A stretch of 64,000 nucleotides of DNA from assembly GCA_965656375.1 (NCBI GenBank), contig CBFHKH010000001.1, positions 644,291-708,290 on the forward strand, read 5' to 3'. The notes beneath the pieces were generated by a model that did not search any database, was not told the origin of the DNA, and saw nothing but the letters and a program-made list of their open reading frames with translations. Positions 4,491 to 19,927 of the stretch are shown here, piece after piece. The translations under genes were made by a program, and so were the position numbers. Every line of letters begins with the position of its first letter. Within the stretch, counting starts at the first letter, position 1. Origin of the DNA: Minisyncoccia bacterium. GTDB taxonomy: Bacteria; Patescibacteriota; Minisyncoccia; Phycocordibacterales; UBA9973.

Positions 4491-4892
4491 ATGAAGAAGG
4501 AATTGTTAAAAATTGCAGTCGTACTACCACTTCTTGCGATATTGCTCGTCGCATTCAATTACGTACATGCTGCTTCATCTCAAAATCCCTTCGGTGGAGT
4601 GATAATAAACACGAAAGCAACAGAGATACAGCAAAAGGAAGCTCAAAATTTCAAGTGTATCGTACCTGGACAAACGATAACCATCCGCCCAAAGGGTAGA
4701 AATTCAAGAACAACCTTCTTCATCCCCGCTGCAGTAAAACAAAGAGGTGGGTCATCACTCCGAGCTAATCAGAACATACTTGGATATTTCAGCCAATCAA
4801 TGACAACAATATCGTGCATATATCAGGGCTATCCTACACGAACAGAAACTGTAACTCTTCCCTCTATAACTCTATTTGGAACCAACAAGTAA
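4491..4892 (+). CDS. secreted hypothetical protein (signal peptide)
   Basis: N-terminal MKKELLKIAVVLPLLAILLVAFNYVHA signal-like segment. First gene of the T4SS-like cluster. Confidence 0.5.
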   Translation: MKKELLKIAVVLPLLAILLVAFNYVHAASSQNPFGGVIINTKATEIQQKEAQNFKCIVPGQTITIRPKGRNSRTTFFIPAAVKQRGGSSLRANQNILGYFSQSMTTISCIYQGYPTRTETVTLPSITLFGTNK

Positions 4893-4893
4893 C

Positions 4894-5766
4894 ATGAATA
4901 AATATCTTCCAAGCAGACAATTCGTAATTCGCGTGATTGTGATTGTAGTCCTTCTTATCCTTGCGATCAGCATATATAAGATCACGATATTTATAAAAGG
5001 AAAGCTTAGCCAAAAAAAACAAACAGAGCTTATTGTAAAAGCAGATGTTATTCAGAAAGACAGCAATGACAATGGGATACCTGATTGGGAAGAATCACTC
5101 TGGGGACTTGATCCAAAGAAAAACGGACAATCAAATAAAGAATATATCCTTACAAAGCGCGAAGCACTTGCTCGAGAAAATAATATTCCTTTAGAAAGCA
5201 ACGAATCCTTATCTGAAAACGAGACATTAGCTCGAGAATTCTTTTCTATTATCATGTCCCTTCAAGAGTCTGGTAATCTTGATGAAACATCTATGCAATC
5301 AATAGGAGATACGATAGGACAAAAGATTGTAGCAACACCAATTCCAGACATTTATACTGAAAATATGCTTTCAACCATAAAAGCAAATTCTGCAACCACG
5401 AGTAAATACTCTGATTCACTACTCTCCTTAATAAATTCTTATAAAAGTACCGATTTAGGAAAAGAACTCACATTTATAAGCGTCGGCCTTACCAATAGCG
5501 ACCCACAGGCACTCGTAGAAGCTGGGAATGTTGCTACCCTCTATCGAACATTTGGTAAAAATCTCTTAAAAATACAAGTTCCGAATACATTTATTGCAGC
5601 TCATTTATCACTTGCAAATGATTATGAAAAAGTGGCTCAGTCTATAGAAGGTATGTCTAAATTACTGATCGATCCGATAATAGGTATGAAAGCTATTGTA
5701 AACTATAAGAAATACACAGATGGAATCGTAACTGATTTTGATACACTTTCAAAGAATTTGGAATAG
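4894..5766 (+). CDS. membrane-anchored hypothetical protein
   Basis: ATG at 4894 lies immediately after the stop of the preceding gene. N-terminal TM (VIRVIVIVVLLILAISIY), then a soluble domain. Confidence 0.5.
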   Translation: MNKYLPSRQFVIRVIVIVVLLILAISIYKITIFIKGKLSQKKQTELIVKADVIQKDSNDNGIPDWEESLWGLDPKKNGQSNKEYILTKREALARENNIPLESNESLSENETLAREFFSIIMSLQESGNLDETSMQSIGDTIGQKIVATPIPDIYTENMLSTIKANSATTSKYSDSLLSLINSYKSTDLGKELTFISVGLTNSDPQALVEAGNVATLYRTFGKNLLKIQVPNTFIAAHLSLANDYEKVAQSIEGMSKLLIDPIIGMKAIVNYKKYTDGIVTDFDTLSKNLE

Positions 5767-5791: not shown

Positions 5792-8260
5792 ATGAATAAA
5801 CCACTGATTCAAAAAATAACATCCTTCCTAATTATAGGCCTATTTTTGTTGCAGCTACTTTCTCCATCTTCCTTATATGCTGCACCCCTTAATTATGATA
5901 ATCCGAATAAAAGTGGAAATAACCCTTACCAACTTTCTCTCAAGGGTGTAGTTAGTAGCGGTTTACTTACATCTGTTGTCGGTTGTACTGGGATAGTTGA
6001 TAAAGTTGCCAAAGTTACAACAGATTTTGCTCAAAAACTAGCCGTAAAAAAAGCAAAGTCAAAAGCAACTAGTGCCGAAGCAAAAAGCCATCAGTCTGAT
6101 TCGGTCCCAGTCGTAGACTCTACAAGTATCAAAACCGAAGAACAAGGACACAACGACACACAAACAGATATCGAAAAAGATTCGTATACAGAAAATTGTT
6201 TAAAAGGTATTGCTATAACACTTGCCAAGAATCAGCTAACTGCAATGACAAAATACACCATGAACTGGATCACAACTGGATTCAATGGTGACCCGCTCTA
6301 CGTACGTGATGTAAATTCATATATGGACAGCCTTACGACAGATATCCTTGAGAAAGAAAATGAACTTTTCAAAGATCCAGATAACGCAGATGAATATCCA
6401 TGGGCGCGGAGTTATACACAAGGACAAGTAAATATATATAAATCTGCAAAAGACGCATACGGATCATTACGACAAGATTTAACCAATTACCTCACTCCTG
6501 GTTCGACTCCAGAGAGCTTCGCAAATGACTTTTCTCAAGGAGGATGGAATGGGTGGCTTGCGCTTACCCAGCGCCCTGAGAATAATCCACTTGGTTTTAA
6601 TATAGTAGCGACTGAAAATCTTAATAAACAAAAAAACAACGCAGTAGAAACAGCAAGAGCAGAAATACAAAGAGGCAATGGAGTTCTTGATCAGAAAAAA
6701 TGCGTTGAATATGAAAAGATAACCTTCTCAGGTGCTCGTACCTGTAATGGAGGAATTCCAGAAGATGAACTTATGCCTGGTACGACATGTATTCCTGACA
6801 AACCAAATAAAACTCCTACAAACAACGCGCCACGATGTATCAAATACGAAACTGTTACTCCAGGATCAGTTATCAAATCAAAGATCGATACATATATCAA
6901 CTCACCTGAGCGTCAGATAGAACTCGCTAATACAATTAATAGTGCACTTAATGCTCTTTTTGCTGCACTTATCACGAAATTTGAAGACCAAGGTCTATCA
7001 AGTCTTGGCTCAAAGGTCAACAATTTCTCATCACCAACAATAAGTGGCGGCTTTGGATCTAATCGTCTTTTTGATTCACTCGGAAATCCAATTTCATCGA
7101 CAAATATTTTTAATAATACAAGTAATGATGCAAGTGTTAATCAATCATTTGATATTACAAGAGATCTTGGTAATAAGTACGTCGAGGCACTCAATAGTGG
7201 TTCATGGGATGCTGATACGAATACTCCTGAGATCATTCCTGGAAAGGGTATAAAGCATCAGTATTATACTGTCTCAAAAGCAGGTGATACAAAACTTTTC
7301 CCTGGAACTCATCACTTTACTGTCGGAGAGAAAGTGTACTTTGACGGTACACTATGGAAAGTAGGAGTGCCAAAATACATTATAGGTACAAAAGGAGTCT
7401 TTCAAATACAAAAGGATTACGGAGCGTCAATCGCAAAAGCTGAAACTATTCTTCCACAAGTCATTCCTGCATTGGGTGAACTCGACTATTGTATTCCAGG
7501 TCCAAACCAAAATTGGATGATGACATCTACTGATGCGAAGGATGCATATAGTGATTATTTGAGTGGAGTAACTACCGAATATATACGTGATGTGTATGAT
7601 GAGTGTCCATTTATCGGATGTGACGGTATTCAATTTATCGGGGGATTACTCAATGGGGGACTTGATCACTCATACAATGTTATCTCTCTTCCTGATGAAA
7701 CTGAATACAAGGATTTATTCGATGATGCACGAAATCTCTGGGACAAGATCGTACAAGAAGAATTCTTCTGGATAGCTCGCAATGATATACATATGCGTTA
7801 CACATTCTCTTCAGACCATTGGGCGGTTGACCCGGCATACGTAGACAGACAAGTCGCAAAATGGACTGAGCTTTCGAAAAATGCATGGGCTGAATACATT
7901 ACAAAGGCAAAGGCTCTCTATGGTATCGGCAGCCCAATGCAAAGTGAATTTACATTTAATGGAGATTACAACACCTCCTACCTACCGATGGCTCAGGCAG
8001 GGCTTGATCTTGCAAAAGATATAGTAACAAATGCAAGCGACATCAAAGAAGCTATTGAAACGAATGAAACGAATATTGCTCAATCAAGTGCTACTGTATA
8101 TAAACTCACAACTATCAAAGACAAAGTCAACAAAATCATCCTTGCTGCACAAAAGCGTCGCAAAGATAAGAGAGATGCAGATGGATTAGGAGCTATACCC
8201 CAGATCTGTCTTGATAATGAACAAGTAACCTACATCGAAAATGGTGTACTTAAACGATAA
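5792..8260 (+). CDS. large secreted hypothetical protein (822 aa), T4SS-cluster associated
   Basis: Signal peptide MNKPLIQKITSFLIIGLFLLQLLSPSSLYA; long ORF. Has the size and position of Gram-positive T4SS surface/adhesin proteins, but no motif was recognised. Confidence 0.5.
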   Translation: MNKPLIQKITSFLIIGLFLLQLLSPSSLYAAPLNYDNPNKSGNNPYQLSLKGVVSSGLLTSVVGCTGIVDKVAKVTTDFAQKLAVKKAKSKATSAEAKSHQSDSVPVVDSTSIKTEEQGHNDTQTDIEKDSYTENCLKGIAITLAKNQLTAMTKYTMNWITTGFNGDPLYVRDVNSYMDSLTTDILEKENELFKDPDNADEYPWARSYTQGQVNIYKSAKDAYGSLRQDLTNYLTPGSTPESFANDFSQGGWNGWLALTQRPENNPLGFNIVATENLNKQKNNAVETARAEIQRGNGVLDQKKCVEYEKITFSGARTCNGGIPEDELMPGTTCIPDKPNKTPTNNAPRCIKYETVTPGSVIKSKIDTYINSPERQIELANTINSALNALFAALITKFEDQGLSSLGSKVNNFSSPTISGGFGSNRLFDSLGNPISSTNIFNNTSNDASVNQSFDITRDLGNKYVEALNSGSWDADTNTPEIIPGKGIKHQYYTVSKAGDTKLFPGTHHFTVGEKVYFDGTLWKVGVPKYIIGTKGVFQIQKDYGASIAKAETILPQVIPALGELDYCIPGPNQNWMMTSTDAKDAYSDYLSGVTTEYIRDVYDECPFIGCDGIQFIGGLLNGGLDHSYNVISLPDETEYKDLFDDARNLWDKIVQEEFFWIARNDIHMRYTFSSDHWAVDPAYVDRQVAKWTELSKNAWAEYITKAKALYGIGSPMQSEFTFNGDYNTSYLPMAQAGLDLAKDIVTNASDIKEAIETNETNIAQSSATVYKLTTIKDKVNKIILAAQKRRKDKRDADGLGAIPQICLDNEQVTYIENGVLKR

Positions 8261-8264
8261 TTAT

Positions 8265-9197
8265 ATGGAACATCATCCTAGAAAAACAAAAGCATTCATC
8301 ATAACTTTCATTGCGATACTTATTCTTTTGATCGTTGGATATTTAGTATTCAGAAACACTGGTACTATCTTTGGGATAAAGAGTAGTGGGAATACGAATA
8401 AGATATTTTCTCCACTTCTTGGAACATCTAAACAAAACACAGTGGATGTGAAACCCGTAAATACAGGTGGAGATACTCCAATAAACAATACTTCGACAAC
8501 GTTACCAACAACAAACCTCTCTGTCACAGATCCGAGTGGCATAGCTCCAGGCTCAGTTTCTGCTCCGATAGGTCAAGGTGGAACAACTAATCCAAATGGC
8601 GCGCCGGTTATCACACCACCATTTAACCCGCTCCCAACACCTACAACTGACTGTGTTGATGCAAGCGGTAATCTGATTCAATGTAACAATACTCCTACGA
8701 TCACAAATCCAGAGTGTTCAGACTCTATAGATAATGATAAGGATGGGTTAAGTGACGCAGCTGATTCAAGCTGTCATACGGATTATAATGCTTCGAATAT
8801 GCTTTCGTACGACAAGAATATCAACGATGAATCTCGTTTGCAGCCAATAACTGGAGATACAGAAATATCAATGTGTCCGGATGATCCACTTGTATTTACT
8901 GAAGAAGAAAAAGTTGAACTTGCGACACTACTCCGACAATATTACTTGCTTGCACCAACACTCAAGATTGAAGACGACGTTACTCTTGTAGACTATGACA
9001 ACCAAACAAATGAAGAACTGGTCAAGCAGGCAACTTCGCTTACGAATGATTGTAATGCCCAGAAGGCATCTCCTGGATACACGGGGCCACAGGCAATCAA
9101 AGACAATCCATATTATCAAAATCCAGTGGCAAACAGCGGTGCAAAAGAGTACATACCAGGATACAGCTTGTATGAATTGATGTTCAATATCTGGTAA
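8265..9197 (+). CDS. membrane-anchored Thr/Pro/Cys-rich hypothetical protein
   Basis: N-terminal TM AFIITFIAILILLIVGYLVF, then a T/P-rich linker and a Cys-containing domain. Start taken at the ATG at 8265 after the upstream stop. Confidence 0.45.
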   Translation: MEHHPRKTKAFIITFIAILILLIVGYLVFRNTGTIFGIKSSGNTNKIFSPLLGTSKQNTVDVKPVNTGGDTPINNTSTTLPTTNLSVTDPSGIAPGSVSAPIGQGGTTNPNGAPVITPPFNPLPTPTTDCVDASGNLIQCNNTPTITNPECSDSIDNDKDGLSDAADSSCHTDYNASNMLSYDKNINDESRLQPITGDTEISMCPDDPLVFTEEEKVELATLLRQYYLLAPTLKIEDDVTLVDYDNQTNEELVKQATSLTNDCNAQKASPGYTGPQAIKDNPYYQNPVANSGAKEYIPGYSLYELMFNIW

Positions 9198-9267: not shown

Positions 9268-11982
9268 GTGAGCAAAAAAACTCTCCCCCTCATTCTCATA
9301 CTTCTCATCATCGCGCAAATGTTTGTGCCTTTTACTGTAGGACGTGACAAAAACAACATTCCCACAATAAAGAAATCTGTAACAGAAGCAGCAATAATGC
9401 AGGTAGCAGTTGACTATACGAGCACGAGTACCGCTATAGATCTTACATTTAGAATTCATCGAGAAACGTCAGATAATCATGGTGTTTTTTACATGATTAC
9501 AAATAATCCGGGAACGACACTAAATCCTAATAAGGATTTTTCATGTACGATATCAACAGGACAAATCTCTACAGTTATTCCCTGCGACTTGAAAGGTGTC
9601 GTTGAAAATGAAAATGCAGATACAGAGATAACATCAGCAAGCCAAGTGTTTGTTCCTGCAAGTGGATCAACAGCGATGGTTACTGATCGAATAAGTAACA
9701 ATCAATTAACCGCTGCTCCAGAAACAACAGGCAGTGATGGAAAAACATACAAGGATGTAACTATAAAGAAAGTTATAAGCCCACTTACTGCAAATACTAC
9801 GTACTACTTGAATGTCTGGGCGTATAATGGAAATCTGGTACCTGAAGGAATTTCATTCTTCTTAGATAAAAAAATAACAACGTCAGTTGCAGGTCAAACT
9901 AATCAGACACCTACTACAGTCGGAACTGTCGAAACAACAGGCGATGGCATGCCAAGTTGTGTATTTGCGCACCCAATAGATGGAACATTTGTAGGATGTA
10001 TAGCGCAGCTTATATATTACGTAGTATTCGTTCCTACTTCATATATATTTGGACTTGCAGGAATGTTTTTCGATACAACGTTTAATTATTCTATACAAGA
10101 CAAATCGTACAACAATTCATTCGTGGTGGAAGGGTGGGGGATCATACGTGATTTCTGCAACATTTTCTTCATATTCGTACTTCTCTATGTAGCATTCTCT
10201 ACAATACTCGGTCTTGGTCATAGTAAACCAAAGGAGATGATTGTAAATGTAGTAATTATAGGGCTTCTGATCAACTTCAGTCTTTTTACCGCTCAAGTCA
10301 TTATAGATACTTCGAACATTTTAGCTCGAGTCTTTTATAATTCCGACGCAGTCAAAGTCACTAAAGATGGAGTGGATCAAGCAGGTGCAAATGGCGTTAT
10401 ACCGATATCAGCCTCGATAGTGAGTAAGGTTGATCCGCAACAACTTATCATAAATTCGAGTAGAGTTTCTGTCTTAAACAAAGCAACCGGAGAAGAAGCA
10501 AGTGCAGGAAATAAAAATTCCACACTTGGAGTAGGAGGATTTATATTGATAACACTCCTTGCAAGTGCGGTTAACGTTGTAGGATTCATTGTATTTCTCA
10601 TGGTTGGAATTATGCTTGTATCTCGAGTTATCGGACTTTGGTTTGCAATGATCTTTGCTCCGCTTGCCTTCTTCTCATATACCGTACCTCAGATGCAAGG
10701 TATGTCGATGGTGGGTTGGAAACATTGGTGGCCGGAAACAATCAAGCTCGCCTTTCTTGCGCCTATTTTCATATTCTTTCTCTACCTCATCCTCAGATTC
10801 ATAGAGTTAGGATTCGGATTAGGAGATGCGGCAAAAGAATCAGGTATCAACTTTGTCCTTCTTACTATGATTCCGTTTATATTTATAATGGTTCTTCTTT
10901 GGAAAGCAAAAGATGTAGCAAAAGATCTGTCCGGCAAGCTTGGGCAAGGAATAACCGGTGGTATATCTGCAGTGGGAGGTATGGCTCTTGGCGGAGCGGC
11001 ACTTGGAGCTGCATTTGCAGGAAGAAAGCTTATTGGAAGTACCGTAGCTCGAGCATCACGAGGAGATACTCTTTCTCAAAGATATGAAGATCCTACAAAG
11101 AGAGCAAAGATGAATGTACTTCAAAAGAGCTTTGGATACATGGGTTCAAAAGTGGGACTCGGAAAAGTATTTGGTAATACATATGACGCAAAAACTCGAA
11201 CAGTCGATAGTGGTATCGGTGGAGTTTTAAATAAGAAACAAAGAAAAGTGGGTGAAATTGACCATGCTCGACACGAGATGGATGCAATTAAAGAAAAAGC
11301 TGGTCTCAAAGGAGTTGATGATGATAGGATTTCTGGCGTAAATGAACAGAAGATGAAGGATACATATGTCAAAGAGAAGAAATCTATGGTTGAATCGGAA
11401 CTTAGAAAGAATGGTGGAGTGGTTGGCGGACAGAAGGTTGAAAGTGAAAATGAATTCAAGGCAAATAATCGAAATCAACTGGTCACAAAAGCGATGAACG
11501 ATCCAAACAACCTAGAGGCTAATGGTACTCTAAAGGATGAGGCAAAGAAACAGATTGAGAATACTCTCAATGCAAATTATGAAATCTATATTAAACCACA
11601 AGTTGAAGCAAAGGCTGCTCAGGATTATGGTCACCTTCGAGATGAATCGAAAACAAAAGTTAATCCACTCGATAGAACAATCGCTCGGTCAAATACTGCT
11701 TCATATGATGCTCGCAATATCTCACAGATGAAAGCGGATAAACGTGAAGGTATATTTACCAGAATGAGTGCAGGATTGATAGCTGGAATCGCTATGGGGG
11801 TACGTACAGGGCTCAAGAATAGTGGAATCAATCATGGTTCTGGCCAAAGTGACTTCCTTAAGGATATTGGACATACTATTACAGAAGCAATGAAGAGCGC
11901 AAAATTTAATGTGAAAGTAGAAGAAAGTCATGGACATGACGCGGGAGGTGATCATGGGCACGGCGGTGGAGGTCATCACTAA
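9268..11982 (+). CDS. VirB6/TrbL-like polytopic membrane protein with long charged C-terminal domain and His/Gly-rich tail
   Basis: GTG start. N-terminal signal plus ~230-aa extracytoplasmic domain, a central block of at least six hydrophobic helices (aa ~240-560), then a charged K/E-rich domain ending HGHDAGGDHGHGGGGHH. The architecture resembles PrgH/TcpH-type VirB6 proteins. Confidence 0.5.
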   Translation: MSKKTLPLILILLIIAQMFVPFTVGRDKNNIPTIKKSVTEAAIMQVAVDYTSTSTAIDLTFRIHRETSDNHGVFYMITNNPGTTLNPNKDFSCTISTGQISTVIPCDLKGVVENENADTEITSASQVFVPASGSTAMVTDRISNNQLTAAPETTGSDGKTYKDVTIKKVISPLTANTTYYLNVWAYNGNLVPEGISFFLDKKITTSVAGQTNQTPTTVGTVETTGDGMPSCVFAHPIDGTFVGCIAQLIYYVVFVPTSYIFGLAGMFFDTTFNYSIQDKSYNNSFVVEGWGIIRDFCNIFFIFVLLYVAFSTILGLGHSKPKEMIVNVVIIGLLINFSLFTAQVIIDTSNILARVFYNSDAVKVTKDGVDQAGANGVIPISASIVSKVDPQQLIINSSRVSVLNKATGEEASAGNKNSTLGVGGFILITLLASAVNVVGFIVFLMVGIMLVSRVIGLWFAMIFAPLAFFSYTVPQMQGMSMVGWKHWWPETIKLAFLAPIFIFFLYLILRFIELGFGLGDAAKESGINFVLLTMIPFIFIMVLLWKAKDVAKDLSGKLGQGITGGISAVGGMALGGAALGAAFAGRKLIGSTVARASRGDTLSQRYEDPTKRAKMNVLQKSFGYMGSKVGLGKVFGNTYDAKTRTVDSGIGGVLNKKQRKVGEIDHARHEMDAIKEKAGLKGVDDDRISGVNEQKMKDTYVKEKKSMVESELRKNGGVVGGQKVESENEFKANNRNQLVTKAMNDPNNLEANGTLKDEAKKQIENTLNANYEIYIKPQVEAKAAQDYGHLRDESKTKVNPLDRTIARSNTASYDARNISQMKADKREGIFTRMSAGLIAGIAMGVRTGLKNSGINHGSGQSDFLKDIGHTITEAMKSAKFNVKVEESHGHDAGGDHGHGGGGHH

Positions 11983-11992
11983 ATAAGATATT

Positions 11993-13111
11993 ATGGATCA
12001 AACACAATTACAACAACAAATAGCTCTCTATTACTCAAAACTCTCGCCAGAAATGCAGGCGTCATTTTCGAGCATGCAGTGGATGGAATCACTCAGAGAA
12101 ATTAGTAGGATATACAAACTGACTGAAAATCAGATAGTTACACTCGGAACCGAAACAACCCTTGTTTTACTTGGGATAATATCCACAGAAGAATATGAAG
12201 CTACATTGAAAGATGAGATAAAAATAGACGATGCCGGAATGAAATCAATGCTTGCCGAGATTGAATCAAAAATACTCGGTGTAAATCGTTCCAGACTTAG
12301 AGAAGCATTTGAAAAGAATGTAGACGAATTAGGACAAGAAAAGTACGGTGGGGTACAGAAACTCGATGAACGATTCCTCAAGCTTCCGCAAGAAGTACAG
12401 CAAGCAATTAGAGAATCGAACTATCAACCTGTACTCTACAAAATTGCAGAAAAACATACACTTTCCATCAATCATATGGCAGCGCTAGAAGAAGCAACCA
12501 CAAAAGTCATGCTTGGCATGATACATCCCGACAAATATGAACAAGAATTACAATCTACTATCGGCATTCCAAAAGAAGAGATTAGAGAAATTGTCAGTGA
12601 AGTAGATGAAGGAGTTTTAAAAAATATTAAAGAAATACTCAAGTCACATTGGGGAAAACAAGAAATAGCAACTACTGCGGATGATGTTCCGATTCCACCG
12701 TATAAAACATCTTCACTAGAGACTTTTTCAAAGGAATCTGACGCGAAAATATACGAGGCGTCTGGAGTTGAAATAGTTAAAGATAGTAAGCCTATACTTT
12801 CAAAACCCGAAGAAAAGAGCGTAACAGAAAGTGAAAGCGGGGTTTTAAATAGTTCGGGAATCAATATCGTACGAGACATTCCCATTGCTCCTTCTGAACA
12901 CATACTTGCAAACAAAGAAACAGAGAAAAAACTCCTTGAAGGACTCGAGCATCCTGCCGATGTAGCAACAAGTATTATTGGGGATAAATTAAGCGGTGCG
13001 ACTAAAAGTAAAGACACGGTTACTGATTATTCACTACCAAAGCTTGGAAAGGATGTAGCGGTGCCTCTGCCCACAAAACCTCACGATCCATACCACGAAC
13101 CAATTGAATAG
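11993..13111 (+). CDS. hypothetical soluble protein (372 aa) inside T4SS-like cluster
   Basis: ORF with no TM segments or recognisable motifs. Confidence 0.4.
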   Translation: MDQTQLQQQIALYYSKLSPEMQASFSSMQWMESLREISRIYKLTENQIVTLGTETTLVLLGIISTEEYEATLKDEIKIDDAGMKSMLAEIESKILGVNRSRLREAFEKNVDELGQEKYGGVQKLDERFLKLPQEVQQAIRESNYQPVLYKIAEKHTLSINHMAALEEATTKVMLGMIHPDKYEQELQSTIGIPKEEIREIVSEVDEGVLKNIKEILKSHWGKQEIATTADDVPIPPYKTSSLETFSKESDAKIYEASGVEIVKDSKPILSKPEEKSVTESESGVLNSSGINIVRDIPIAPSEHILANKETEKKLLEGLEHPADVATSIIGDKLSGATKSKDTVTDYSLPKLGKDVAVPLPTKPHDPYHEPIE

Positions 13112-13130
13112 TTTGTGATACAATATATAC

Positions 13131-13547
13131 ATGCAGTTTAAGGTCCCACAATTCATTGATATTGAGGATAAGCTTTTCGGACCTTTCACGTTCCGTCAAT
13201 TCGTCTATCTAGTCGGTGGTGCAGGAATGATATTCGTTGTGTACAAGCTTTTGCCGCTCTATATTGGTATTTTTCTCATCATACCAATCGCAGGCCTTTC
13301 TGCGCTTTTGACATTTTACAAGATCAACAACAAGCCTTTTATTTATTATCTCCAGGCAGCAACAAATTACGCCATTTCAAGTAAACTCTATGTATGGAAA
13401 CAACGTCTTGCGAAACATACAGACAATATAAATACTGATGATATTGCTCTTTCTCAAAAAGTTTCTACCTTGCCAGTTATGACAGAGAGTAAACTCAAAG
13501 ATCTTTCATGGAGTCTTGATGTACAGGCAAAAGACGAAAATGAATAG
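13131..13547 (+). CDS. PrgI family / VirB3-like small membrane protein
   Basis: MQFKVPQFIDIEDKLFGPFTFRQFVYLVGGAGMIFV... matches the PrgI-family pattern (vP, K, lt.RQ, G) plus two TM helices. It sits directly upstream of the VirB4 gene, as in Gram-positive T4SS operons. Confidence 0.6.
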   Translation: MQFKVPQFIDIEDKLFGPFTFRQFVYLVGGAGMIFVVYKLLPLYIGIFLIIPIAGLSALLTFYKINNKPFIYYLQAATNYAISSKLYVWKQRLAKHTDNINTDDIALSQKVSTLPVMTESKLKDLSWSLDVQAKDENE

Positions 13548-13573: not shown

Positions 13574-14227
13574 ATGGCAATCAACGCGAGGAGCGCACAA
13601 GAATTCGTACCAATCAAAGAAGTTCGCAATGGCGTCATCGTTCTCAAAGACGGAGGTCTTCGTGCAGTTCTTATTGCCTCATCTATCAATCTTTCTCTCA
13701 AATCAAGCGACGAGCAGACTGCTATTATAAATCAATTCCAGTCATTCTTAAATGGTCTTGATTTTCCAACACAAATCGTTATGCAGTCCCGCAGGCTCGA
13801 TATTCGTCCGTATCTTTTAACACTCGAAGAGAGACTCAAACAACAAAATGAGAAGCTTTTGAAGATTCAGACAAAGGAGTATATAGATTTCATCCGCTCA
13901 TTCACAGATGAGGTTAACATCATGACGAAAACATTCTTTGTCATTGTTCCCTATAGTTCGGCAGTACTTAAATCAAGCGATGGGTTGCTCGAAAAGATTG
14001 TCGGTGGAAATGCCGCTAAAAAGCAGATTGAAGATACGAAGAAAGCTATTGACCTCGCATCATTCGAAGAAAAACGAAGTCAGCTCGATCAGCGCGTTGG
14101 GGTTATTATCGGAGGTCTCGGCGGCATTGGTATTCGCTCAAGTCAGCTCAAGACCGAAGAGATCGTAGAGCTTTTTTATAAGACATTCAATCCAGGAGAT
14201 ATTAGTCAGGGAATTAAATTACAATAA
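13574..14227 (+). CDS. VirB4/PrgJ-like ATPase, N-terminal fragment (217 aa)
   Basis: EFVPIKEVRNGVIVLKDGGLRAVLIASSINLSLKSSDEQTAIINQFQSFLNGLDFPTQIVMQSRRLDIRPYL is the typical N-terminus of Gram-positive VirB4 (CagE_TrbE_VirB family). It ends with TAA 8 nt before the next ORF, in a different frame. Confidence 0.6.
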   Translation: MAINARSAQEFVPIKEVRNGVIVLKDGGLRAVLIASSINLSLKSSDEQTAIINQFQSFLNGLDFPTQIVMQSRRLDIRPYLLTLEERLKQQNEKLLKIQTKEYIDFIRSFTDEVNIMTKTFFVIVPYSSAVLKSSDGLLEKIVGGNAAKKQIEDTKKAIDLASFEEKRSQLDQRVGVIIGGLGGIGIRSSQLKTEEIVELFYKTFNPGDISQGIKLQ

Positions 14228-14235
14228 GAATCAGT

Positions 14236-16074
14236 ATGTCGATATTTTCATCACTATTTGGAGGAGGTAAAAACAAGACAGGACCAAAAAGCTCTGTCAT
14301 GCCGGTACTTCCCGCTGAGATCTATAAAGCTGCAACACTCGAGCTTCAAGATATCATCGCGCCATCAGCATTACAAATAACTCCAAAATCTTTAAACTTG
14401 GGCGATAAAATTGCGCGAACATTTTTCGTTATTTCCTACCCCCGATATCTCTCGGATAACTGGTTCTCGCCGATCATCAACCTTGATAAAGTTTTTGATG
14501 TATCTATATTTGTTCATCCGATCGATACCGCAGAAGTTCTCCATATGTTCCAGAAAAAAGTTGCCGAGGTGCAGAGTCAAATCTCTATTCGCGAATCAAA
14601 AGGTCTTGTTCGAGATCCAATGCTTGATACTGCGTATCAAGATTTAGAAGGACTTCGAGATAATCTTATGCAAGCTCAAGAGAAAATGTTTGATGTTGGA
14701 CTCTATATCACCGTATATGCCGATACAGAGAACGATCTGTTCAAAATTGAGAGTGAGATAAAATCCCTTTTAGAATCAAAGCTTATTTACCTAAAACCAG
14801 CCTTATTTCAGCAAGACGAAGCATTTAAAAGTGTTATTCCACTTGGTACAGATATACTCGGTATTCATCAGAAGCTCAATACAGAACCACTGTCTTCGCT
14901 CTTTCCGTTCGTATCATTTGACCTGACATCAGATAAAGGAATACTCTACGGGGTTAATCGTCACAACTCGAGCTTGATAATATTTGATCGATTCTCACTC
15001 CCGAACTACAATTCGATAACATTTGCCACATCCGGTGCAGGAAAATCATACGCGACAAAGCTCGAAATAATCCGCACACTCATGTTTGACACTGAGGTCA
15101 TCGTTATCGACCCTGAGCGTGAATATGAATACCTCTCTGAAGCAGTTGGCGGGCGATATTTCAATATATCTCTTTCGTCAGATCACCATATCAATCCGTT
15201 TGATTTGCCTATACCGTCATCTGATGAAACGGGAGCCGATGTTCTTCGCGCTAACACCATAAACCTGGTTGGACTATTTCGCATTATGCTTGGAGGTCTC
15301 ACTCCAGAAGAGGATTCTATAATCGATAGTGCTATCACTGAAACATACGCACTTAAAGACATTACGGCAGAATCTAATTTTGCAAACATTGAGCCTCCAC
15401 TTCTCTCTGATTTTGAAATGGTACTCGCTGGTATGGAGGGGAGTGGATCACTCATCCAACGTCTTGCAAAATTCACTCACGGATCATGGGCATCATTTCT
15501 AAACCAGGCTTCAAACGTAGATATCAATCGTAAATTCGTCGTGTTCTCTGTTCGCGACATGGAAGACGACCTAAAACCTGTTGCTATGTATATAGTCACA
15601 CACTATATATGGAATGCTGTTCGAAAGAATATAAAGAAACGATTACTTGTCGTCGATGAGGCCTGGTGGATGATGAAATCCGACGATACAGCTTCATTCC
15701 TTTATTCTATTGCTAAGCGCGGGCGTAAGTACTATCTCGGCCTTGCAACCATAACCCAAGACGTAGGAGACTTTATGAAGAGTCCGTATGGTGTGCCAAT
15801 TGTCACAAACTCTTCTATACAATTACTACTCAAACAATCTCCATCAACAGTTGATGTGCTCCAAAAAACTTTTAATCTGACAGATGAGGAAAAATACCTG
15901 CTTCTCGAAGCAAATGTCGGAGAGGGTATATTCTTTGCCGGCCTCAAGCACGTCGCGGTAAAGACTATTGCTTCATATACAGAAGATCAGATCATTACAT
16001 CTGATCCATCGCAAATACTCGCTATCAAGAAAGCAAAGGATGAATTGGCGGCATCTTCTGGGACAGGACGCTAA
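14236..16074 (+). CDS. VirB4/PrgJ-like ATPase, C-terminal portion incl. Walker A/B (612 aa)
   Basis: GDKIARTFFVISYPRYL region; Walker A TSGAGKSYATKLEII; Walker B LLVVDEAWWMM; LATITQDVGDF. Together with the 217-aa fragment this makes ~829 aa, the usual VirB4 length. Confidence 0.75.
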   Translation: MSIFSSLFGGGKNKTGPKSSVMPVLPAEIYKAATLELQDIIAPSALQITPKSLNLGDKIARTFFVISYPRYLSDNWFSPIINLDKVFDVSIFVHPIDTAEVLHMFQKKVAEVQSQISIRESKGLVRDPMLDTAYQDLEGLRDNLMQAQEKMFDVGLYITVYADTENDLFKIESEIKSLLESKLIYLKPALFQQDEAFKSVIPLGTDILGIHQKLNTEPLSSLFPFVSFDLTSDKGILYGVNRHNSSLIIFDRFSLPNYNSITFATSGAGKSYATKLEIIRTLMFDTEVIVIDPEREYEYLSEAVGGRYFNISLSSDHHINPFDLPIPSSDETGADVLRANTINLVGLFRIMLGGLTPEEDSIIDSAITETYALKDITAESNFANIEPPLLSDFEMVLAGMEGSGSLIQRLAKFTHGSWASFLNQASNVDINRKFVVFSVRDMEDDLKPVAMYIVTHYIWNAVRKNIKKRLLVVDEAWWMMKSDDTASFLYSIAKRGRKYYLGLATITQDVGDFMKSPYGVPIVTNSSIQLLLKQSPSTVDVLQKTFNLTDEEKYLLLEANVGEGIFFAGLKHVAVKTIASYTEDQIITSDPSQILAIKKAKDELAASSGTGR

Positions 16075-16133: not shown

Positions 16134-17129
16134 GTGATTACACAACGAGCAAAAATAGCACTAAGTGTACTTTTCTTGATAAGTATCCTTTACGTAGGTA
16201 AGGAAACTTGGGCAGCAAACGAAATTAATCCAGGTGAAGGAGATATATCAGTCACTACTATTCCAGAGAATCCGGAACCATATCAGGATGTCACAATACA
16301 GCTTTCAAGCTATGCGACAGATCTTAATAGAGCAATGATACAGTGGCAAAGCGGGGCGCGTGTCGTACTCTCAGGATATGGAAAGACAAGTTATTCATTC
16401 AAAACACAGGGTCCAAACACTGCAACTATACTTACTGTCATTATCGCAATACCAGGTACTATCGACAATATCACGAAACAGATATTCATTAATCCGTCAG
16501 AAGTTGAACTTATTTGGGAGGGAGTTGATTCATATACTCCGCCATTTTACAGAGGTAAATCATTTCCGACAGCTGAAAGCCGTATAAAGGTAGTAGCTAT
16601 TCCAAATACCACTACAATCAAACAAGGGAAGGGTTCAGTTTCGTATATATGGAAGTATGGTGATCGCACAGCACAAAGCGCGTCTGGCTACAATAAAGAT
16701 TCATTTGTTTATCAAAATAGTGTACTTAATGATATAGATAAGATCACAGTCACAGCAGAATCTGTGGATGGAGGATACACTGCAACAAAAAGTATACAAA
16801 TACCGATAAGAGAACCAAAACTCCTTTTCTATAAAAAGTCTCCAACTGAAGGGGTATTGTATAATCAAGCACTCGAGTCTGGATCATTTATTGAGGAAGA
16901 GGAAGCAACGTTTGTTGCAGTACCATATTTCCTTGCACTTTCTGGTAATGAGAATAATTTCAATTACACATGGAAGATAAATGGAAAAGAGATCGAAACT
17001 CCATCGAAAAAAACAGAACTCACTATTCGTCCAGCTGCTCGTGGGGGATATGCCACTATTGATGTACTTTTTGAGAACCTAGATACAATTTATCAGAGTG
17101 TGAAAGGTAGTCTTAAAATAACCCTCTAA
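16134..17129 (+). CDS. secreted hypothetical protein
   Basis: GTG start with a TATATAAT box just upstream. Signal peptide ALSVLFLISILYVGKETWA. Confidence 0.45.
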   Translation: MITQRAKIALSVLFLISILYVGKETWAANEINPGEGDISVTTIPENPEPYQDVTIQLSSYATDLNRAMIQWQSGARVVLSGYGKTSYSFKTQGPNTATILTVIIAIPGTIDNITKQIFINPSEVELIWEGVDSYTPPFYRGKSFPTAESRIKVVAIPNTTTIKQGKGSVSYIWKYGDRTAQSASGYNKDSFVYQNSVLNDIDKITVTAESVDGGYTATKSIQIPIREPKLLFYKKSPTEGVLYNQALESGSFIEEEEATFVAVPYFLALSGNENNFNYTWKINGKEIETPSKKTELTIRPAARGGYATIDVLFENLDTIYQSVKGSLKITL

Positions 17130-17130
17130 T

Positions 17131-18579
17131 ATGAAAAGATTTTCATCATTGCTAGTCCTCACACTTCTTGCAATAAACACTTTTGTGCCATTTGGTATAT
17201 CACTATCTTCTAATTTTTTACCAGAGATAGTGAAAAATACAGTTTCTGCTGATACCTGCACGATACTCTCAGCAGAATGGAGTCCGGCTGGTGAACAGAG
17301 CAAAAGTACTTTCTATAGAGACGGAAAGACGGCAGCAAATATCGTAGTGGGGACAAAGGGTTGTGTCGACCAACCAGGAATAACGCTTACTGTTTTTGAA
17401 TCGGATAGCTGTCCTCAGAATTGTGATGATGCATTGATTGATTCGAATCTATTGCGAAGACAGATAAAGGTTCCGAGTGATAATTTCACTATACGCATTA
17501 GATTAGGAGAAGAAGAATGCGAAGCTGGATTATCCGGAAGCATCGGCTATGACTGTGATTTATTCTTCTATATAAGACAAGGTGATACCACGCTCTATAA
17601 TTCATCTGGGAAAACCAATGGTGACATCTACTATGAATGTGACGGGCTTTGTTTTGACAATGCTGAATTATTGAAAATCTATGCCCAGGGATCAGACAGC
17701 AACCCAACCACTGTAGATATCAATACGAGCGCAATAAACGAAGATGTATATACTCTTCTTGCTCCTATCGGTAACATAAACTGTGTAAGTGATACTGGGA
17801 TGGATAAGGATGGTAATCAGAACTGCATTGTGGGCAATGGAATCGGATACTATCTGAATGCAATTTTCCTCCTTGCTATCGGTCTTTGTGGAGCGCTCGC
17901 AGTTATTATGATCATCATAAGTGGTATTCAGTACATGGGTGATGAATCAGTATTCGGTAAAACTGAAGCAAAGAGCAAGATATTTGCTGCAATACTTGGT
18001 CTTTTGATCGCACTTGGTTCATATGCATTGCTTCGAACTATTAATCCTGATCTCACTGGTTCAGACGGAGTATCGATAAGCCAAGTTGAGGCTGAAATAG
18101 ATGATCAACCGATACTCTCTGATGAAAATACAGTTGCTCCAATAGGAACAAATATTGCTAAGTGTCCGGAAGGAGTGGAACCAACACAAACTGCAACTGT
18201 AAAATTCATTACTTGTAAATCGATTTCAGTAAAGTTTAAACAAATGATTTCTGATGCATTAGCAGCAGGAATGAAAATAACTGGGGGAGGATTCAGAACC
18301 CGTGCTGAGCAAGTTGCTCTGTATCAAAAGAATTGTGGAGGTGGTACAAGAAAATGTAATCCACCTACAGCAAAACCAGGAAGTTCTATGCACGAAAGTG
18401 GGCTCGCATTTGATTTGAAATGCGATGGAAATTTAATCAATTTTGACGGAAATCAAAGAAAATTCCCAATTGTTACATCTACAAAAAAATGTTTTGATTG
18501 GTTAGCCGCAAATGCCTATAAATACGGACTACAAAATTTTAAAAGAGAAAATTGGCACTGGTCTACAAACGGTCACTAA
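17131..18579 (+). CDS. secreted Cys-rich domain + VirB2/TrbC-like TM hairpin + C-terminal peptidase M15 (VanY/CwlK-type) peptidoglycan hydrolase
   Basis: Signal peptide. Two hydrophobic helices separated by a short charged loop (LNAIFLLAIGLCGALAVIMIIISGIQYMGDESVFGKTEAKSKIFAAILGLLIALGSYALL). C-terminal SSMHESGLAFDL (SxHxxGxAxD) and ENWHW (ExxH) zinc-peptidase motifs. Confidence 0.6.
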   Translation: MKRFSSLLVLTLLAINTFVPFGISLSSNFLPEIVKNTVSADTCTILSAEWSPAGEQSKSTFYRDGKTAANIVVGTKGCVDQPGITLTVFESDSCPQNCDDALIDSNLLRRQIKVPSDNFTIRIRLGEEECEAGLSGSIGYDCDLFFYIRQGDTTLYNSSGKTNGDIYYECDGLCFDNAELLKIYAQGSDSNPTTVDINTSAINEDVYTLLAPIGNINCVSDTGMDKDGNQNCIVGNGIGYYLNAIFLLAIGLCGALAVIMIIISGIQYMGDESVFGKTEAKSKIFAAILGLLIALGSYALLRTINPDLTGSDGVSISQVEAEIDDQPILSDENTVAPIGTNIAKCPEGVEPTQTATVKFITCKSISVKFKQMISDALAAGMKITGGGFRTRAEQVALYQKNCGGGTRKCNPPTAKPGSSMHESGLAFDLKCDGNLINFDGNQRKFPIVTSTKKCFDWLAANAYKYGLQNFKRENWHWSTNGH

Positions 18580-18589
18580 TAAATAATAT

Positions 18590-19927
18590 ATGCCTAGAAA
18601 AACAAAAATTATCTTCATAATCGTGTTTGCAGTCATCGGGATGGGAACGTTGAGTGCATATTTCTACATTAATCGTGCAAAAACAACCGGATCAACTGAT
18701 GGTGCTTCATCTGGCTACAAACCGTTCTTTGGTAGTAGTAATACACCCGATACAGAAACAACATCACAAGATCAAACAGGAAACACCGATACCAATGTAA
18801 ATACAGAATCAGCCGAAACCATAAATGCGACACCATCAGGTTCTTCTCGATTCAGTCAGATTGCTAATTTCGCAGTTGCAGGAGCGGTATTTTTCGAAGA
18901 TACCCGACCAATACCCGAAGATGAAGTAGCCCTACCGGGAGGTGAAGAGCCAGCTAAAGAACCTTCTCCAGTGAAAGCTAAAACAAAGACAGCTCCTGTG
19001 AAACCACAAGCACCTAAATTTGAAATAGTACCGAGTCTTCGGTATGTAGAGCGCGCTACAGGGCATATACATCAGATGTATCTGGACACAAAAGTAACTG
19101 GACAAGTCTCTAATGGAACAATACCAACAGTATATGAAGCTCTCTTTGATGGTAAAGCAAACTCGCTTTTGTATCGCTATATCGGAGATGATGGACGGAG
19201 TATTACAAGTTTCTTAGCAACACTCGGAAGTGCAAATGGTGAATTTTTGCCGGCAGATATCCTCGATGTAAGCGTTTCTCCCGATAAAAGCAAATTCTTT
19301 TATTTGACAAAGACTGCTCAAGGGGTAGTCGGCACAACTCGGTCATTTAGAGATACGAAAAAAACCCAAATATTTAGCTCTTCTCTTACAGAACTTCTTT
19401 CAGAGTGGGTAACCGACCAGAAGGTATTTTTAACGACAAAAGCTGATTCCTCGGTAAACGGAAGTGTATTTAGTCTAAATACTGGGACTGGAGTCCTTAC
19501 AAAGATCCTAGGAGGGGTAAAGGGGCTTACAACCCTTGCAAACAACGATGGGTCATTCGTCCTTTACAGTGTCTCAACAAATAGTGGTCCGAGGTTAGGT
19601 ATTTTTGATGTTAAAAATCATACCTCAAAAGACCTCAATATAAATGGGCTTCCAGAAAAATGTATTTGGAAGGATACTTTTATTTATTGCGCTATTCCTA
19701 ACAATGCTACAGGTACCGGATATCCAGAACTATGGTACCGAGGACAAGTATCATTTACTGATCATTTTGTTAAGATAAATACAACAACATATGAAAGCAC
19801 TACGTTGGCGGATTCAGCATACGAGATACCTATCGATGGTACTCATCTTTTCTTGGATGATACAGATACGACTCTCTTCTTCATAAACAAGAAAGACTCC
19901 ACTCTTTGGAGTCTTAACCTAAAGTAA
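18590..19927 (+). CDS. membrane-anchored hypothetical protein, probable beta-propeller-like extracytoplasmic domain
   Basis: N-terminal TM IIFIIVFAVIGMGTLSAYFYI. Last gene of the cluster, convergent with jag. Confidence 0.4.
   Translation: MPRKTKIIFIIVFAVIGMGTLSAYFYINRAKTTGSTDGASSGYKPFFGSSNTPDTETTSQDQTGNTDTNVNTESAETINATPSGSSRFSQIANFAVAGAVFFEDTRPIPEDEVALPGGEEPAKEPSPVKAKTKTAPVKPQAPKFEIVPSLRYVERATGHIHQMYLDTKVTGQVSNGTIPTVYEALFDGKANSLLYRYIGDDGRSITSFLATLGSANGEFLPADILDVSVSPDKSKFFYLTKTAQGVVGTTRSFRDTKKTQIFSSSLTELLSEWVTDQKVFLTTKADSSVNGSVFSLNTGTGVLTKILGGVKGLTTLANNDGSFVLYSVSTNSGPRLGIFDVKNHTSKDLNINGLPEKCIWKDTFIYCAIPNNATGTGYPELWYRGQVSFTDHFVKINTTTYESTTLADSAYEIPIDGTHLFLDDTDTTLFFINKKDSTLWSLNLK

What the first reader, a model, noticed from the sequence alone, without database searches (positions are those of the whole stretch)
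17131..18579. Fusion of a VirB2/TrbC-like two-helix membrane hairpin with a peptidase M15 (VanY/CwlK-type) cell-wall hydrolase
The protein has a signal peptide and a Cys-rich ectodomain. Two hydrophobic helices follow, separated by a short charged loop (GIQYMGDESVFGKTEAKSK), the hallmark topology of T4SS pilins. The C-terminus is a zinc D,D- or L,D-peptidase domain with SSMHESGLAFDL and ENWHW motifs. T4SS clusters usually carry a lytic transglycosylase or CHAP hydrolase as a separate VirB1-like protein. A pilin-like anchor fused to an M15 peptidase is an unusual solution to local wall remodelling, and the topology places the peptidase outside the membrane.
Basis: partly seen in the sequence, partly recalled or inferred. 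Interest (0 to 1): 0.65.

Follow-up and report, generated by a model that had tools for sequence, protein, structure and literature searches.

The report
Secretion-system pilin carrying swappable wall enzymes
This gene encodes the pilin-like subunit of a type IV secretion system in an ultrasmall (Patescibacteria) bacterium, fused to a zinc peptidase that acts on bacterial cell wall; in close relatives that peptidase is replaced by at least a dozen other wall-acting enzymes, which hints at what this unexplained secretion system does.

Summary
ORF 17131-18579 (482 aa) has an N-terminal signal-like segment, a Cys-rich beta-sandwich, a two-helix hydrophobic hairpin and a C-terminal M15B (VanY/LdcB-type) zinc peptidase with all catalytic residues invariant in 101 homologues.

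The hairpin is more than an anchor. It occupies the pilin position of a chromosomal, oriC-adjacent, Gram-positive-type T4SS: PrgI, split VirB4, a 331-aa gene, this gene, a 445-aa gene, then Jag-YidC-RnpA and dnaA. Some relatives carry a stand-alone 131-167 aa PF18895 pilin in exactly that position.

The fusion is not rare. About 95% of the 150 nearest representative clusters, and 79 genes in 80 Paceibacteria/Nomurabacteria genomes, have an enzyme-sized tail.

The new point is that the tail is a cassette. At least 13 unrelated classes follow one sharp junction (..QVSAEI): VanY, M15_4, YkuD, NlpC/P60, several SLT types, Amidase_2 and unknowns. Proteins 78-87% identical upstream carry different enzymes.

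Best reading: a VirB1-type wall-remodelling function built into the VirB2-like pilin. Whether it acts on the cell's own wall or the host's is open. I found no description of this in the literature searched. New variant of a known kind; interest 0.66.

The parts
17131..18579 (+). Whole ORF (482 aa plus stop): signal-like segment, beta-sandwich, pilin core, linker, M15B peptidase.
17131..17250 (+). N-terminal signal-like region (aa 1-40). It has a basic MKR start, a hydrophobic segment at aa 4-27, and a VSA motif just before the conserved D-C-x-I/V-L/I-S-A. The cleavage site was not determined.
17251..17730 (+). Cys-rich beta-sandwich ectodomain (aa 41-200), pLDDT mostly above 90. It has no Pfam match and only weak fold similarity to Ig-like and carbohydrate-binding sandwiches. 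Other relatives have a TIG domain, other domains, or nothing here.
17749..18105 (+). Conserved pilin core (aa 207-325): the Y-x-LLAPIG motif, helix 1 (aa 238-270), the loop YMGDESVFGKTEAKSK, helix 2 (aa 274-304), and the NPDL..G..G..I.QV.AEI tail that ends at the cassette junction.
18106..18162 (+). Acidic linker of low model confidence between the pilin core and the enzyme (aa 326-344).
18163..18576 (+). M15B (VanY/LdcB-type) zinc peptidase domain (aa 345-482). It carries SxHxxGxAxD (aa 419-428), ExxH (aa 473-476), R389/Q394 and six invariant Cys.
13131..13547 (+). PrgI/VirB3-like gene of the same T4SS cluster.
   Evidence: synteny
13574..14227 (+). TrsD/TraC-like 217-aa protein, corresponding to the N-terminal part of VirB4 encoded as a separate gene.
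14236..16074 (+). VirB4-type ATPase (P-loop_TraG).
16134..17129 (+). Conserved secreted 331-aa partner of unknown function, always immediately upstream of the pilin gene.
18590..19927 (+). Conserved membrane-anchored 445-aa partner of unknown function, always immediately downstream whatever the cassette.
9268..11982 (+). 904-aa polytopic membrane protein, read as a VirB6-like candidate from its many hydrophobic segments only. It has no Pfam hit.

Best explanation
The ORF is the VirB2-like pilin subunit of a chromosomal, oriC-adjacent, monoderm-type (MPF-FATA-like) type IV secretion system of a Paceibacteria-class Patescibacterium.

Proposed mechanism, step by step:
1. The N-terminal signal-like segment inserts the protein through Sec/YidC (inferred).
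2. The two hydrophobic helices sit in the membrane with the short K-rich loop in the cytoplasm.
3. Both the N-terminal beta-sandwich and the C-terminal M15B zinc peptidase therefore lie outside the membrane, at the level of the peptidoglycan.
4. The peptidase acts on peptidoglycan stem peptides where the T4SS channel or pilus is built.

On this reading, the wall-remodelling job done by a separate VirB1-type hydrolase in other T4SSs (PrgK, TraG, CwlT, TcpG) is built into the pilin itself.

Shown here: domain identities, intact catalytic site, position in the pilin slot of the cluster, family-wide fusion, and cassette exchange. Inferred: enzyme activity and bond specificity, whether the subunit polymerises, whether the enzyme stays attached, and which wall it acts on.
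For: - Domains. VanY is above the Pfam cut-off and has the LdcB/VanXY fold. Catalytic residues are invariant in 101/101 homologues.
- Pilin family. T4SS_pilin matches 90/101 homologues and TrbC matches 13/101. Several relatives exceed the gathering score.
- Gene order. PrgI, TrsD-like, VirB4, 331-aa gene, THIS gene, 445-aa gene, then Jag, YidC, RnpA and dnaA. This order holds in the window and in essentially every one of 80 species-level genomes wherever the contig extends.
- Orthology with a pilin. Stand-alone 131-167 aa PF18895 pilins with a 46-69% identical core exist. For two of them whose contigs were examined (P0123 in L004, P0124 in L003) the gene sits in the same position, and the flanking genes compared are orthologous: 52% and 42% identity in L004, and a 40% local match for the downstream gene in L003.
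- Sole candidate. No other pilin-like ORF was found in the 64-kb window, and no cluster gene scanned gave a wall-hydrolase match.
- Same position, other wall enzymes. Relatives carry SLT, YkuD or NlpC/P60 there. Across the family there are also Amidase_2, SLT_2 and M15_4, so every recognised cassette acts on peptidoglycan.
- Topology. Loop K/R is about 3, and the flanks have net charge -1 and -5. Six Cys in the peptidase region are invariant.
- Own wall present. The genome encodes a class A PBP.
- Gap in the published account. The published survey found VirB2-like genes near virB4 but mostly no VirB1 (PMC12102498). This fusion would fill that gap.
Against: - M15B enzymes closest to this domain (LdcB, VanY, VanXY) are carboxypeptidases that trim stem peptides. 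YkuD enzymes are L,D-transpeptidases. Neither would open a hole in a sacculus, so simple hole punching does not fit the most frequent cassettes.
- Some relatives have a bare pilin. In the L004 cluster no gene has a precomputed Pfam wall-hydrolase hit, so a cluster-encoded enzyme may not be indispensable for assembly through the cell's own wall.
- Frequent cassette replacement between near-identical proteins is not expected if the substrate is the organism's own, stable wall chemistry.
- The query itself scores below the Pfam T4SS_pilin cut-off.
- No sequence or fold link to solved VirB2/TraA pilins was obtained.
- No Patescibacterial T4SS pilus has yet been demonstrated. The reviews speak only of a potential.
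Confidence: 0.5

Rival explanations
1. Host-directed weapon. The conserved pilin core is a delivery scaffold. The variable C-terminal enzymes, and the variable N-terminal binding domains, are displayed on a T4SS pilus or at the contact site. There they cut or edit the wall of the host (prey) cell on which the epibiont lives, and cassette swapping tracks host wall chemistry.
For: - There is a sharp junction after ..QVSAEI followed by unrelated enzymes. P0035 (M15), P0055 (YkuD) and P0038 (SLT) are 78-87% identical upstream of it.
- At least 13 cassette classes interleave on the tree of the N-domain plus core.
- The N-terminal domains are variable too.
- Bare-pilin relatives suggest the enzyme is an accessory rather than an assembly requirement.
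- The T4SS is essential for epibiotic growth in Saccharibacteria and lacks a relaxase or coupling protein, and its role is called completely unknown.
- T4SS pilins are among the most highly expressed genes of unknown function in Paceibacteria that parasitise methanogens.
- From my own knowledge: YkuD-fold, NlpC/P60-like, amidase and muramidase domains all occur as antibacterial T6SS effectors, for example Tlde1, Tae and Tge.
Against: - There is no co-varying immunity gene. The downstream gene is the same orthologue whatever the cassette.
- The enzyme is tethered next to the cell's own peptidoglycan, which the cell makes.
- No pilus has been demonstrated.
- Gram-positive VirB1-like hydrolases also vary in domain content.
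- Some Paceibacteria hosts are archaea without murein.
Confidence: 0.33
2. Precursor polyprotein. As with RP4 TrbC and Agrobacterium VirB2, whose C-termini are trimmed during maturation (my own knowledge), the protein is cleaved near the conserved NP.L..G..G..I.QV.AEI segment. This releases a mature short pilin and a free soluble wall enzyme, and possibly the N-domain, so the fusion serves co-expression and co-secretion rather than tethering. This can coexist with either of the readings above.
For: - Stand-alone pilins end exactly at or just after this segment.
- The cassette junction is at the same place.
- The following linker is acidic and has low model confidence.
Against: - No protease gene (TraF/S26-like) was recognised in the cluster.
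- No cleavage motif could be defined.
- No proteomic data were available.
Confidence: 0.12
3. Housekeeping membrane-anchored LdcB/VanY-type carboxypeptidase that recycles or trims the cell's own stem peptides. On this reading the hairpin is just a two-pass anchor and the T4SS neighbourhood is incidental.
For: - The best PDB and NCBIfam matches are LdcB-type L,D-carboxypeptidases.
- NCBI names relatives 'M15 family metallopeptidase' or 'D-alanyl-D-alanine carboxypeptidase family protein'.
Against: - Synteny inside the T4SS cluster is strict across about 80 genomes.
- The same position holds a bare pilin in some relatives.
- The same position holds lytic enzymes (SLT, NlpC/P60, amidase) in others.
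- 90/101 homologues match T4SS_pilin.
Confidence: 0.05

Closest known systems
VirB2-like pilins of Patescibacteria (Pfam PF18895 T4SS_pilin); Wang et al. 2023 (PMC10633639), Quinonero-Coronel et al. 2025 (PMC12102498)
   Same: - It has the same family hairpin: signal sequence, two hydrophobic helices and a short K-rich loop.
- It is encoded beside virB4/prgI in a chromosomal T4SS near dnaA.
- Stand-alone orthologues of 131-167 aa occupy the same position.
   Different: - Here the core is embedded between an N-terminal domain of about 170 aa and a C-terminal enzyme of about 140 aa.
- It is a single gene rather than the 2-11-gene pilin arrays reported for Saccharimonadia and Microgenomatia.
- The papers do not mention such fusions in their text. 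One supplementary row lists a VirB2 hit that carries PF00877, without comment.
VirB1-like cell-wall hydrolases of Gram-positive T4SSs (PrgK of pCF10, TraG of pIP501, CwlT of ICEBs1, TcpG of pCW3)
   Same: - It is encoded in the T4SS cluster.
- It is membrane-anchored with an extracytoplasmic catalytic domain.
- Domain content is modular. Relatives in the same position carry SLT or NlpC/P60, as these proteins do.
   Different: - The anchor is the pilin itself rather than a single N-terminal helix or lipobox.
- The catalytic domain in this window is an M15B peptidase, not a glycosidase or CHAP domain.
- The enzyme is exchanged between very close relatives.
LdcB / VanY / VanXY (MEROPS M15B; PDB 4ox3, 4mph, 4mus)
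   Same: - It has the same fold and the same zinc site (H-x6-D plus H), catalytic Glu in ExxH, the SxHxxGxAxD motif, and the Arg/Gln of the YRS..Q motif.
   Different: - Identity is only 14-20%.
- It has three extra conserved Cys pairs.
- It is fused to a pilin.
- Specificity (D,D- or L,D-carboxypeptidase, or endopeptidase) is unknown.
Polymorphic toxins and peptidoglycan-targeting effectors of T6SS/T4SS (e.g. Tlde1, Tae, Tge, Xanthomonas X-Tfe; my own knowledge), and phage virion-associated lysins
   Same: - A conserved N-terminal delivery part is followed, after a sharp junction, by unrelated wall-acting enzyme domains that are exchanged between close relatives.
   Different: - There is no adjacent co-varying immunity gene.
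- The carrier is a membrane and pilus subunit rather than a secreted substrate.
- Toxicity has not been shown.

Membership tests
T4SS_pilin (PF18895) / VirB2-TrbC-like pilins | N-terminal signal sequence followed by two hydrophobic helices joined by a short polar or basic loop. | tested here: met
   Hydropathy segments lie at aa 4-27, 241-264 and 283-303. AF2 models helices 238-270 and 274-304. The loop holds about 3 K/R and the flanks are acidic.
T4SS_pilin (PF18895) / VirB2-TrbC-like pilins | Profile match at or above the family's gathering score. | tested here: inconclusive
   This protein scores 18.0 bits against 26.6. At family level 90/101 homologues match at E<=0.01 (best 2.6e-8) and 13/101 also match TrbC. 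Relatives P0127, P0128, P0129 and P0131 score 28-29 bits. The stand-alone relatives P0121-P0123 carry a precomputed PF18895 hit; P0124 and P0125 carry none on record.
T4SS_pilin (PF18895) / VirB2-TrbC-like pilins | Encoded with VirB3/VirB4 in a T4SS cluster, in the position of the system's pilin. | tested here: met
   About 80 genomes show the same order. Bare pilins occupy the same position, with orthologous flanking genes.
T4SS_pilin (PF18895) / VirB2-TrbC-like pilins | Detectable relationship to structurally solved VirB2/TraA pilins. | tested here: not met
T4SS_pilin (PF18895) / VirB2-TrbC-like pilins | Polymerises into an extracellular pilus. | not testable with these tools
   This needs cryo-ET, cryo-EM or biochemistry. 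Reviews describe only a potential for Patescibacterial T4SS pili.
Peptidase M15B (VanY/LdcB, PF02557) | Profile match above the curated cut-off. | tested here: met
   43.4 bits against 25, E=3.6e-11, aa 364-478. All 101 homologues match.
Peptidase M15B (VanY/LdcB, PF02557) | Zinc ligands H-x6-D plus a distal H, catalytic Glu in ExxH, and the SxHxxGxAxD motif. | tested here: met
   S419, H421, D428, E473 and H476, plus R389 and Q394, are invariant in 101/101 homologues. They align with the LdcB motifs.
Peptidase M15B (VanY/LdcB, PF02557) | LAS/M15B fold. | tested here: met
   The AF2 domain has pLDDT mostly above 90. Foldseek matches 4mph, 4jid and 4mus at E=1e-5 to 3e-4, probability 1.0.
Peptidase M15B (VanY/LdcB, PF02557) | Carboxypeptidase or endopeptidase activity on peptidoglycan stem peptides. 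| not testable with these tools
   This needs an enzyme assay on muropeptides or sacculi.
VirB1-like T4SS wall hydrolase (functional class) | Encoded in the T4SS cluster with an extracytoplasmic catalytic domain. | tested here: met
VirB1-like T4SS wall hydrolase (functional class) | Lytic transglycosylase/muramidase and/or CHAP/NlpC-P60 catalytic domain. | tested here: not met
   This protein carries M15B only. Genes in the same position in relatives do carry SLT (P0116) or NlpC/P60 (P0046).
Polymorphic effector/toxin architecture | Conserved N-terminal part, a sharp junction, and unrelated C-terminal domains in close relatives. | tested here: met
   The trio P0035/P0055/P0038 shows it directly. 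Classes interleave on the tree. The 150 nearest representative clusters contain 13 classes with two or more members, plus two singletons.
Polymorphic effector/toxin architecture | Adjacent immunity gene that co-varies with the C-terminal domain. | tested here: not met
   The downstream gene is the same 400-520 aa orthologue whatever the cassette.

The most novel reading that the evidence does not exclude
The Paceibacterial T4SS pilin is a modular delivery scaffold. A conserved VirB2-like core carries exchangeable peptidoglycan-enzyme cassettes at its C-terminus and exchangeable binding domains at its N-terminus. Once polymerised or exposed at the epibiont-host contact, it breaches or edits the HOST cell wall. 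Cassette turnover would then reflect adaptation to host wall chemistry. This would be the first pilus-borne polymorphic wall weapon, and it would give a concrete function to the essential but unexplained Patescibacterial T4SS.
Probability: 0.3. Interest if true: 0.85.

Novelty: new variant of a known kind. Interest (0 to 1): 0.66.

Why it matters
Patescibacteria make up a large share of bacterial diversity and live attached to other microbes. Their chromosomal T4SS is essential in the one species tested, yet its role is described as completely unknown.

The published survey concluded that most VirB2-carrying genomes lack a VirB1-type hydrolase. In the Paceibacteria-type clusters examined here that conclusion needs revising, because the wall enzyme is built into the pilin.

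The enzyme is also a rapidly exchanged cassette covering the glycan-cleaving, amidase and peptidase types of wall enzyme. This turns a vague question, what the system does, into testable ones:

- Which wall is cut.
- Which bond is cut.
- Whether cassette type tracks the host.

It would also be, as far as I could find, the first case of a VirB2-family pilin carrying a catalytic domain.

Tried and rejected
- **Second pilin gene in the window.** An HMM of the conserved core run against all six-frame ORFs found only this gene. A 15-bit hit at 215-340 lies in a non-coding frame and is chance. A hydropathy screen of small ORFs found no signal-plus-two-helix candidate.
- **Unknown cassette classes.** For unkC, unkD and unkE, Pfam, PHROGs and profile-versus-PDB searches gave nothing significant. 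hhalign links SLT_A and SLT_B to SLT at 94-95% probability and unkC only weakly at 53%. The invariant H..H-x7-D...E..H-x-H of unkE looks like a LAS zinc peptidase, but hhalign does not support this, so it stays a hint.
- **unkD model.** An AF2 model of P0099 was poor overall (pLDDT 51, with the C-terminal domain at 70-92). Foldseek found nothing at E<1.
- **Core-only search in the word-indexed database.** It returned only 5 hits because of indexing, but these were the informative stand-alone pilins.
- **Organism name.** Taxonomy is inferred from related genomes, which are labelled Paceibacterota, Nomurabacteria and Parcubacteria. The 'uncultured Saccharibacteria' labels on some assemblies look like a generic label.
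- **Recent mobile-element origin.** Rejected, because GC is flat at about 0.39 and the cluster is embedded between ksgA/uvrD and rnpA/dnaA in all relatives.
Full report
**1. What is in the sequence**

ORF 17131-18579 (+) encodes 482 aa. It is tightly packed in an operon. The upstream gene ends 1 nt before its ATG, and the next gene starts 10 nt after its stop.

Hydropathy shows an N-terminal hydrophobic segment (aa 4-27) and two strong hydrophobic segments at about 241-264 and 283-303. An AlphaFold2 model built on 101 homologues (mean pLDDT 85.6) gives the following:

- an N-terminal helix;
- a confident beta domain (aa 44-185);
- short strands around the conserved Y-x-LLAPIG motif;
- two long helices (238-270 and 274-304);
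- a low-confidence acidic linker;
- a confident alpha/beta domain (aa 349-478).

**2. The C-terminal enzyme**

- Pfam VanY (PF02557) matches aa 364-478 at E=3.6e-11, above the curated cut-off.
- NCBIfam's best model is LdcB.
- The best PDB sequence match is B. subtilis YodJ/LdcB.
- Foldseek matches the LdcB and VanXYc structures with probability 1.0.
- In an alignment of 101 homologues the zinc ligands H421, D428 and H476 are invariant. So are the catalytic E473, the residues S419, R389 and Q394, and six cysteines.

The domain is therefore an intact M15B zinc peptidase. Its bond specificity cannot be read from sequence. The nearest characterised relatives are carboxypeptidases.

**3. The hairpin is a T4SS pilin module, and the gene is the system's pilin**

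The query matches PF18895 (T4SS_pilin) only at 18 bits, below the cut-off. At family level the picture is different:

- 90 of 101 homologues match at E<=0.01 (best 2.6e-8), and 13 also match TrbC/VirB2.
- Several relatives exceed the gathering score.

A search with the 101-aa core alone found stand-alone pilins of 131-167 aa with 46-69% identical cores. For two of them (P0123 and P0124) the genomic position was examined, and it is exactly the same. The order there is PrgI, TrsD-like, VirB4 and the 331-aa gene upstream, and the 400-520-aa gene, Jag, YidC, RnpA and dnaA downstream. The flanking genes compared are orthologous to those of the window: 52% and 42% identity in L004, and a 40% local match for the downstream gene in L003.

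No other pilin-like ORF exists in the 64-kb window. The hairpin is thus the VirB2-like subunit of this T4SS, not an arbitrary anchor.

I could not link it by sequence or fold to solved VirB2/TraA pilins. Polymerisation is untested.

**4. Context**

The cluster is chromosomal. It lies between uvrD/ksgA and rnpA-yidC-jag | dnaA-dnaN, and a class A PBP follows. GC content is flat across the window.

This is the oriC-adjacent, MPF-FATA-like T4SS of Patescibacteria described by Quinonero-Coronel et al. 2025. Related loci come from genomes labelled Paceibacterota, Nomurabacteria and Parcubacteria.

In 80 species-level genomes the order PrgI, VirB4N, VirB4C, 331-aa gene, pilin gene, 445-aa gene, Jag, YidC, DnaA is kept wherever the contig extends.

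**5. The fusion is the rule and the enzyme is a cassette**

The core alone matches 9581 representative clusters at E<=1e-3 and 1411 at E<=1e-10. Of the best 150, 142 have at least 130 aa after the core. Three of the eight short ones appear cut off, two of them within recognisable cassette sequence.

Clustering the tails gives 13 classes with two or more members, plus two singletons:

| Class | Count among the best 150 |
|---|---|
| VanY | 53 |
| Unknown class E | 14 |
| Unknown class C (weakly SLT-like) | 13 |
| Unknown class D | 12 |
| Divergent SLT, type A | 10 |
| YkuD | 8 |
| NlpC/P60 | 8 |
| SLT (PF01464) | 7 |
| Amidase_2 | 5 |
| SLT_2 | 3 |
| P0171-type unknown | 3 |
| Divergent SLT, type B | 2 |
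| Peptidase_M15_4 | 2 |

The 80 genomes show the same spread. Every class that can be named acts on peptidoglycan, and together they include glycan-cleaving, amidase and peptidase types.

On a tree of the N-domain plus core the classes are interleaved. The clearest case is P0035 (M15), P0055 (YkuD) and P0038 (SLT). These are 78-87% identical up to ...NPDLLNGGVHIDQVSAEI and unrelated immediately after. Stand-alone pilins end at that same point.

The N-terminal ectodomain is also variable. It can be this Cys-rich sandwich, a TIG domain, other domains, or nothing.

**6. Topology**

Across the family the inter-helix loop holds about 3 K/R. The segment before helix 1 has net charge -1 and the segment after helix 2 has net charge -5. 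With the N-terminal signal-like segment and the invariant cysteines in the enzyme, this places the loop in the cytoplasm and both appended domains outside. That is the known VirB2 topology (my own knowledge).

**7. How it most likely works**

Shown here:

- the pilin-family core sits in the pilin position;
- the extracytoplasmic peptidoglycan peptidase is intact;
- no gene scanned in the cluster gave a wall-hydrolase match;
- the fusion is family-wide.

Inferred: the enzyme acts on peptidoglycan where the T4SS channel or pilus is assembled. On this reading the VirB1 function is built into VirB2. It would explain why the published survey found VirB2 homologues but mostly no VirB1.

Weak points:

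- LdcB/VanY-type and YkuD enzymes are not obviously lytic.
- Some relatives have no enzyme on the pilin.
- Cassette turnover is faster than expected for an enzyme acting on the cell's own, stable wall.

These points feed the main rival. In that reading the enzymes, carried on the pilin, act on the host's wall at the epibiont-host junction, as polymorphic effectors do. Against it, there is no co-varying immunity gene, because the downstream gene is the same orthologue throughout. A pilus has not been demonstrated either.

A third possibility can coexist with either reading. The pilin may be matured by cleavage at the conserved junction, as in TrbC/VirB2 maturation (my own knowledge), releasing a free enzyme.

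A purely housekeeping carboxypeptidase is very unlikely given the synteny.

**8. Comparison with what is known, and novelty**

VirB2-like pilins in Patescibacteria are known. So are membrane-anchored T4SS wall hydrolases in Gram-positive bacteria.

I found no paper describing pilin-enzyme fusions or cassette exchange. The 2025 survey does not mention VanY, M15 or such fusions in its text. One row of its supplementary table lists a VirB2 hit carrying PF00877, without comment. Database names call relatives either 'pilin' or 'M15 family metallopeptidase', never both.

I rate it a new variant of a known kind.

**9. Limits**

- No formal topology predictor was available.
- There is no experimental evidence.
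- Three large cassette classes remain unidentified.
- The literature search covers open-access papers and bioRxiv only.

Noticed in passing
window 13574-14227 and 14236-16074: VirB4 is split into a 217-aa TrsD/TraC-like gene and a 612-aa P-loop ATPase gene. The split is conserved in all related loci examined.
   Followed up: partly
window 9268-11982: A 904-aa polytopic membrane protein (VirB6-like candidate, no Pfam hit) has a secreted N-terminal domain. Its C-terminal tail is rich in His and Gly: HGHDAGGDHGHGGGGHH.
   Followed up: no
window 16134-17129 and 18590-19927: Two conserved partners of unknown function always flank the pilin gene. One is a secreted 331-aa protein. The other is a membrane-anchored 445-aa protein with a low-complexity linker. 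In L003 the downstream orthologue is longer (522 aa) and has a precomputed PG_binding_1 hit.
   Followed up: partly
proteins P0149 and P0165: P0149 carries four tandem copies of the pilin core followed by an SLT domain. P0165 carries two cores. These are concatenated pilin modules within one polypeptide.
   Followed up: no
L015 3119-4411 and 5827-6825; L082 5839-7026 and 8432-9499: Two genomes carry two pilin-enzyme genes, one on each side of the 445-aa orthologue.
   Followed up: no
proteins P0061, P0099, P0126 and relatives (class unkD): This C-terminal cassette has invariant AQTxxEGF...NNPGNIGN...GAR. It has no Pfam, PHROG or PDB match. Its helical AF2 domain (pLDDT 70-92) has no Foldseek neighbour. 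It may be an undescribed wall-enzyme family.
   Followed up: partly
window 5792-8260, 8241-9197, 4491-5766, 11993-13111: Several large cluster genes are conserved in position (822, 318, 133/296 and 372 aa) and have no Pfam match. The first three groups have predicted signal or transmembrane segments.
   Followed up: no
window 31512-33266 (-): A PilB-type T2SSE ATPase with an MshEN domain lies 12 kb from the T4SS cluster. This indicates type IV pilus machinery nearby.
   Followed up: no
supplementary table of PMC12102498: KKT24894.1 is listed as VirB2 (T_virB2 profile) with Pfam PF00877 (NlpC/P60). A pilin-enzyme fusion is therefore present in the published data but is not discussed.
   Followed up: partly
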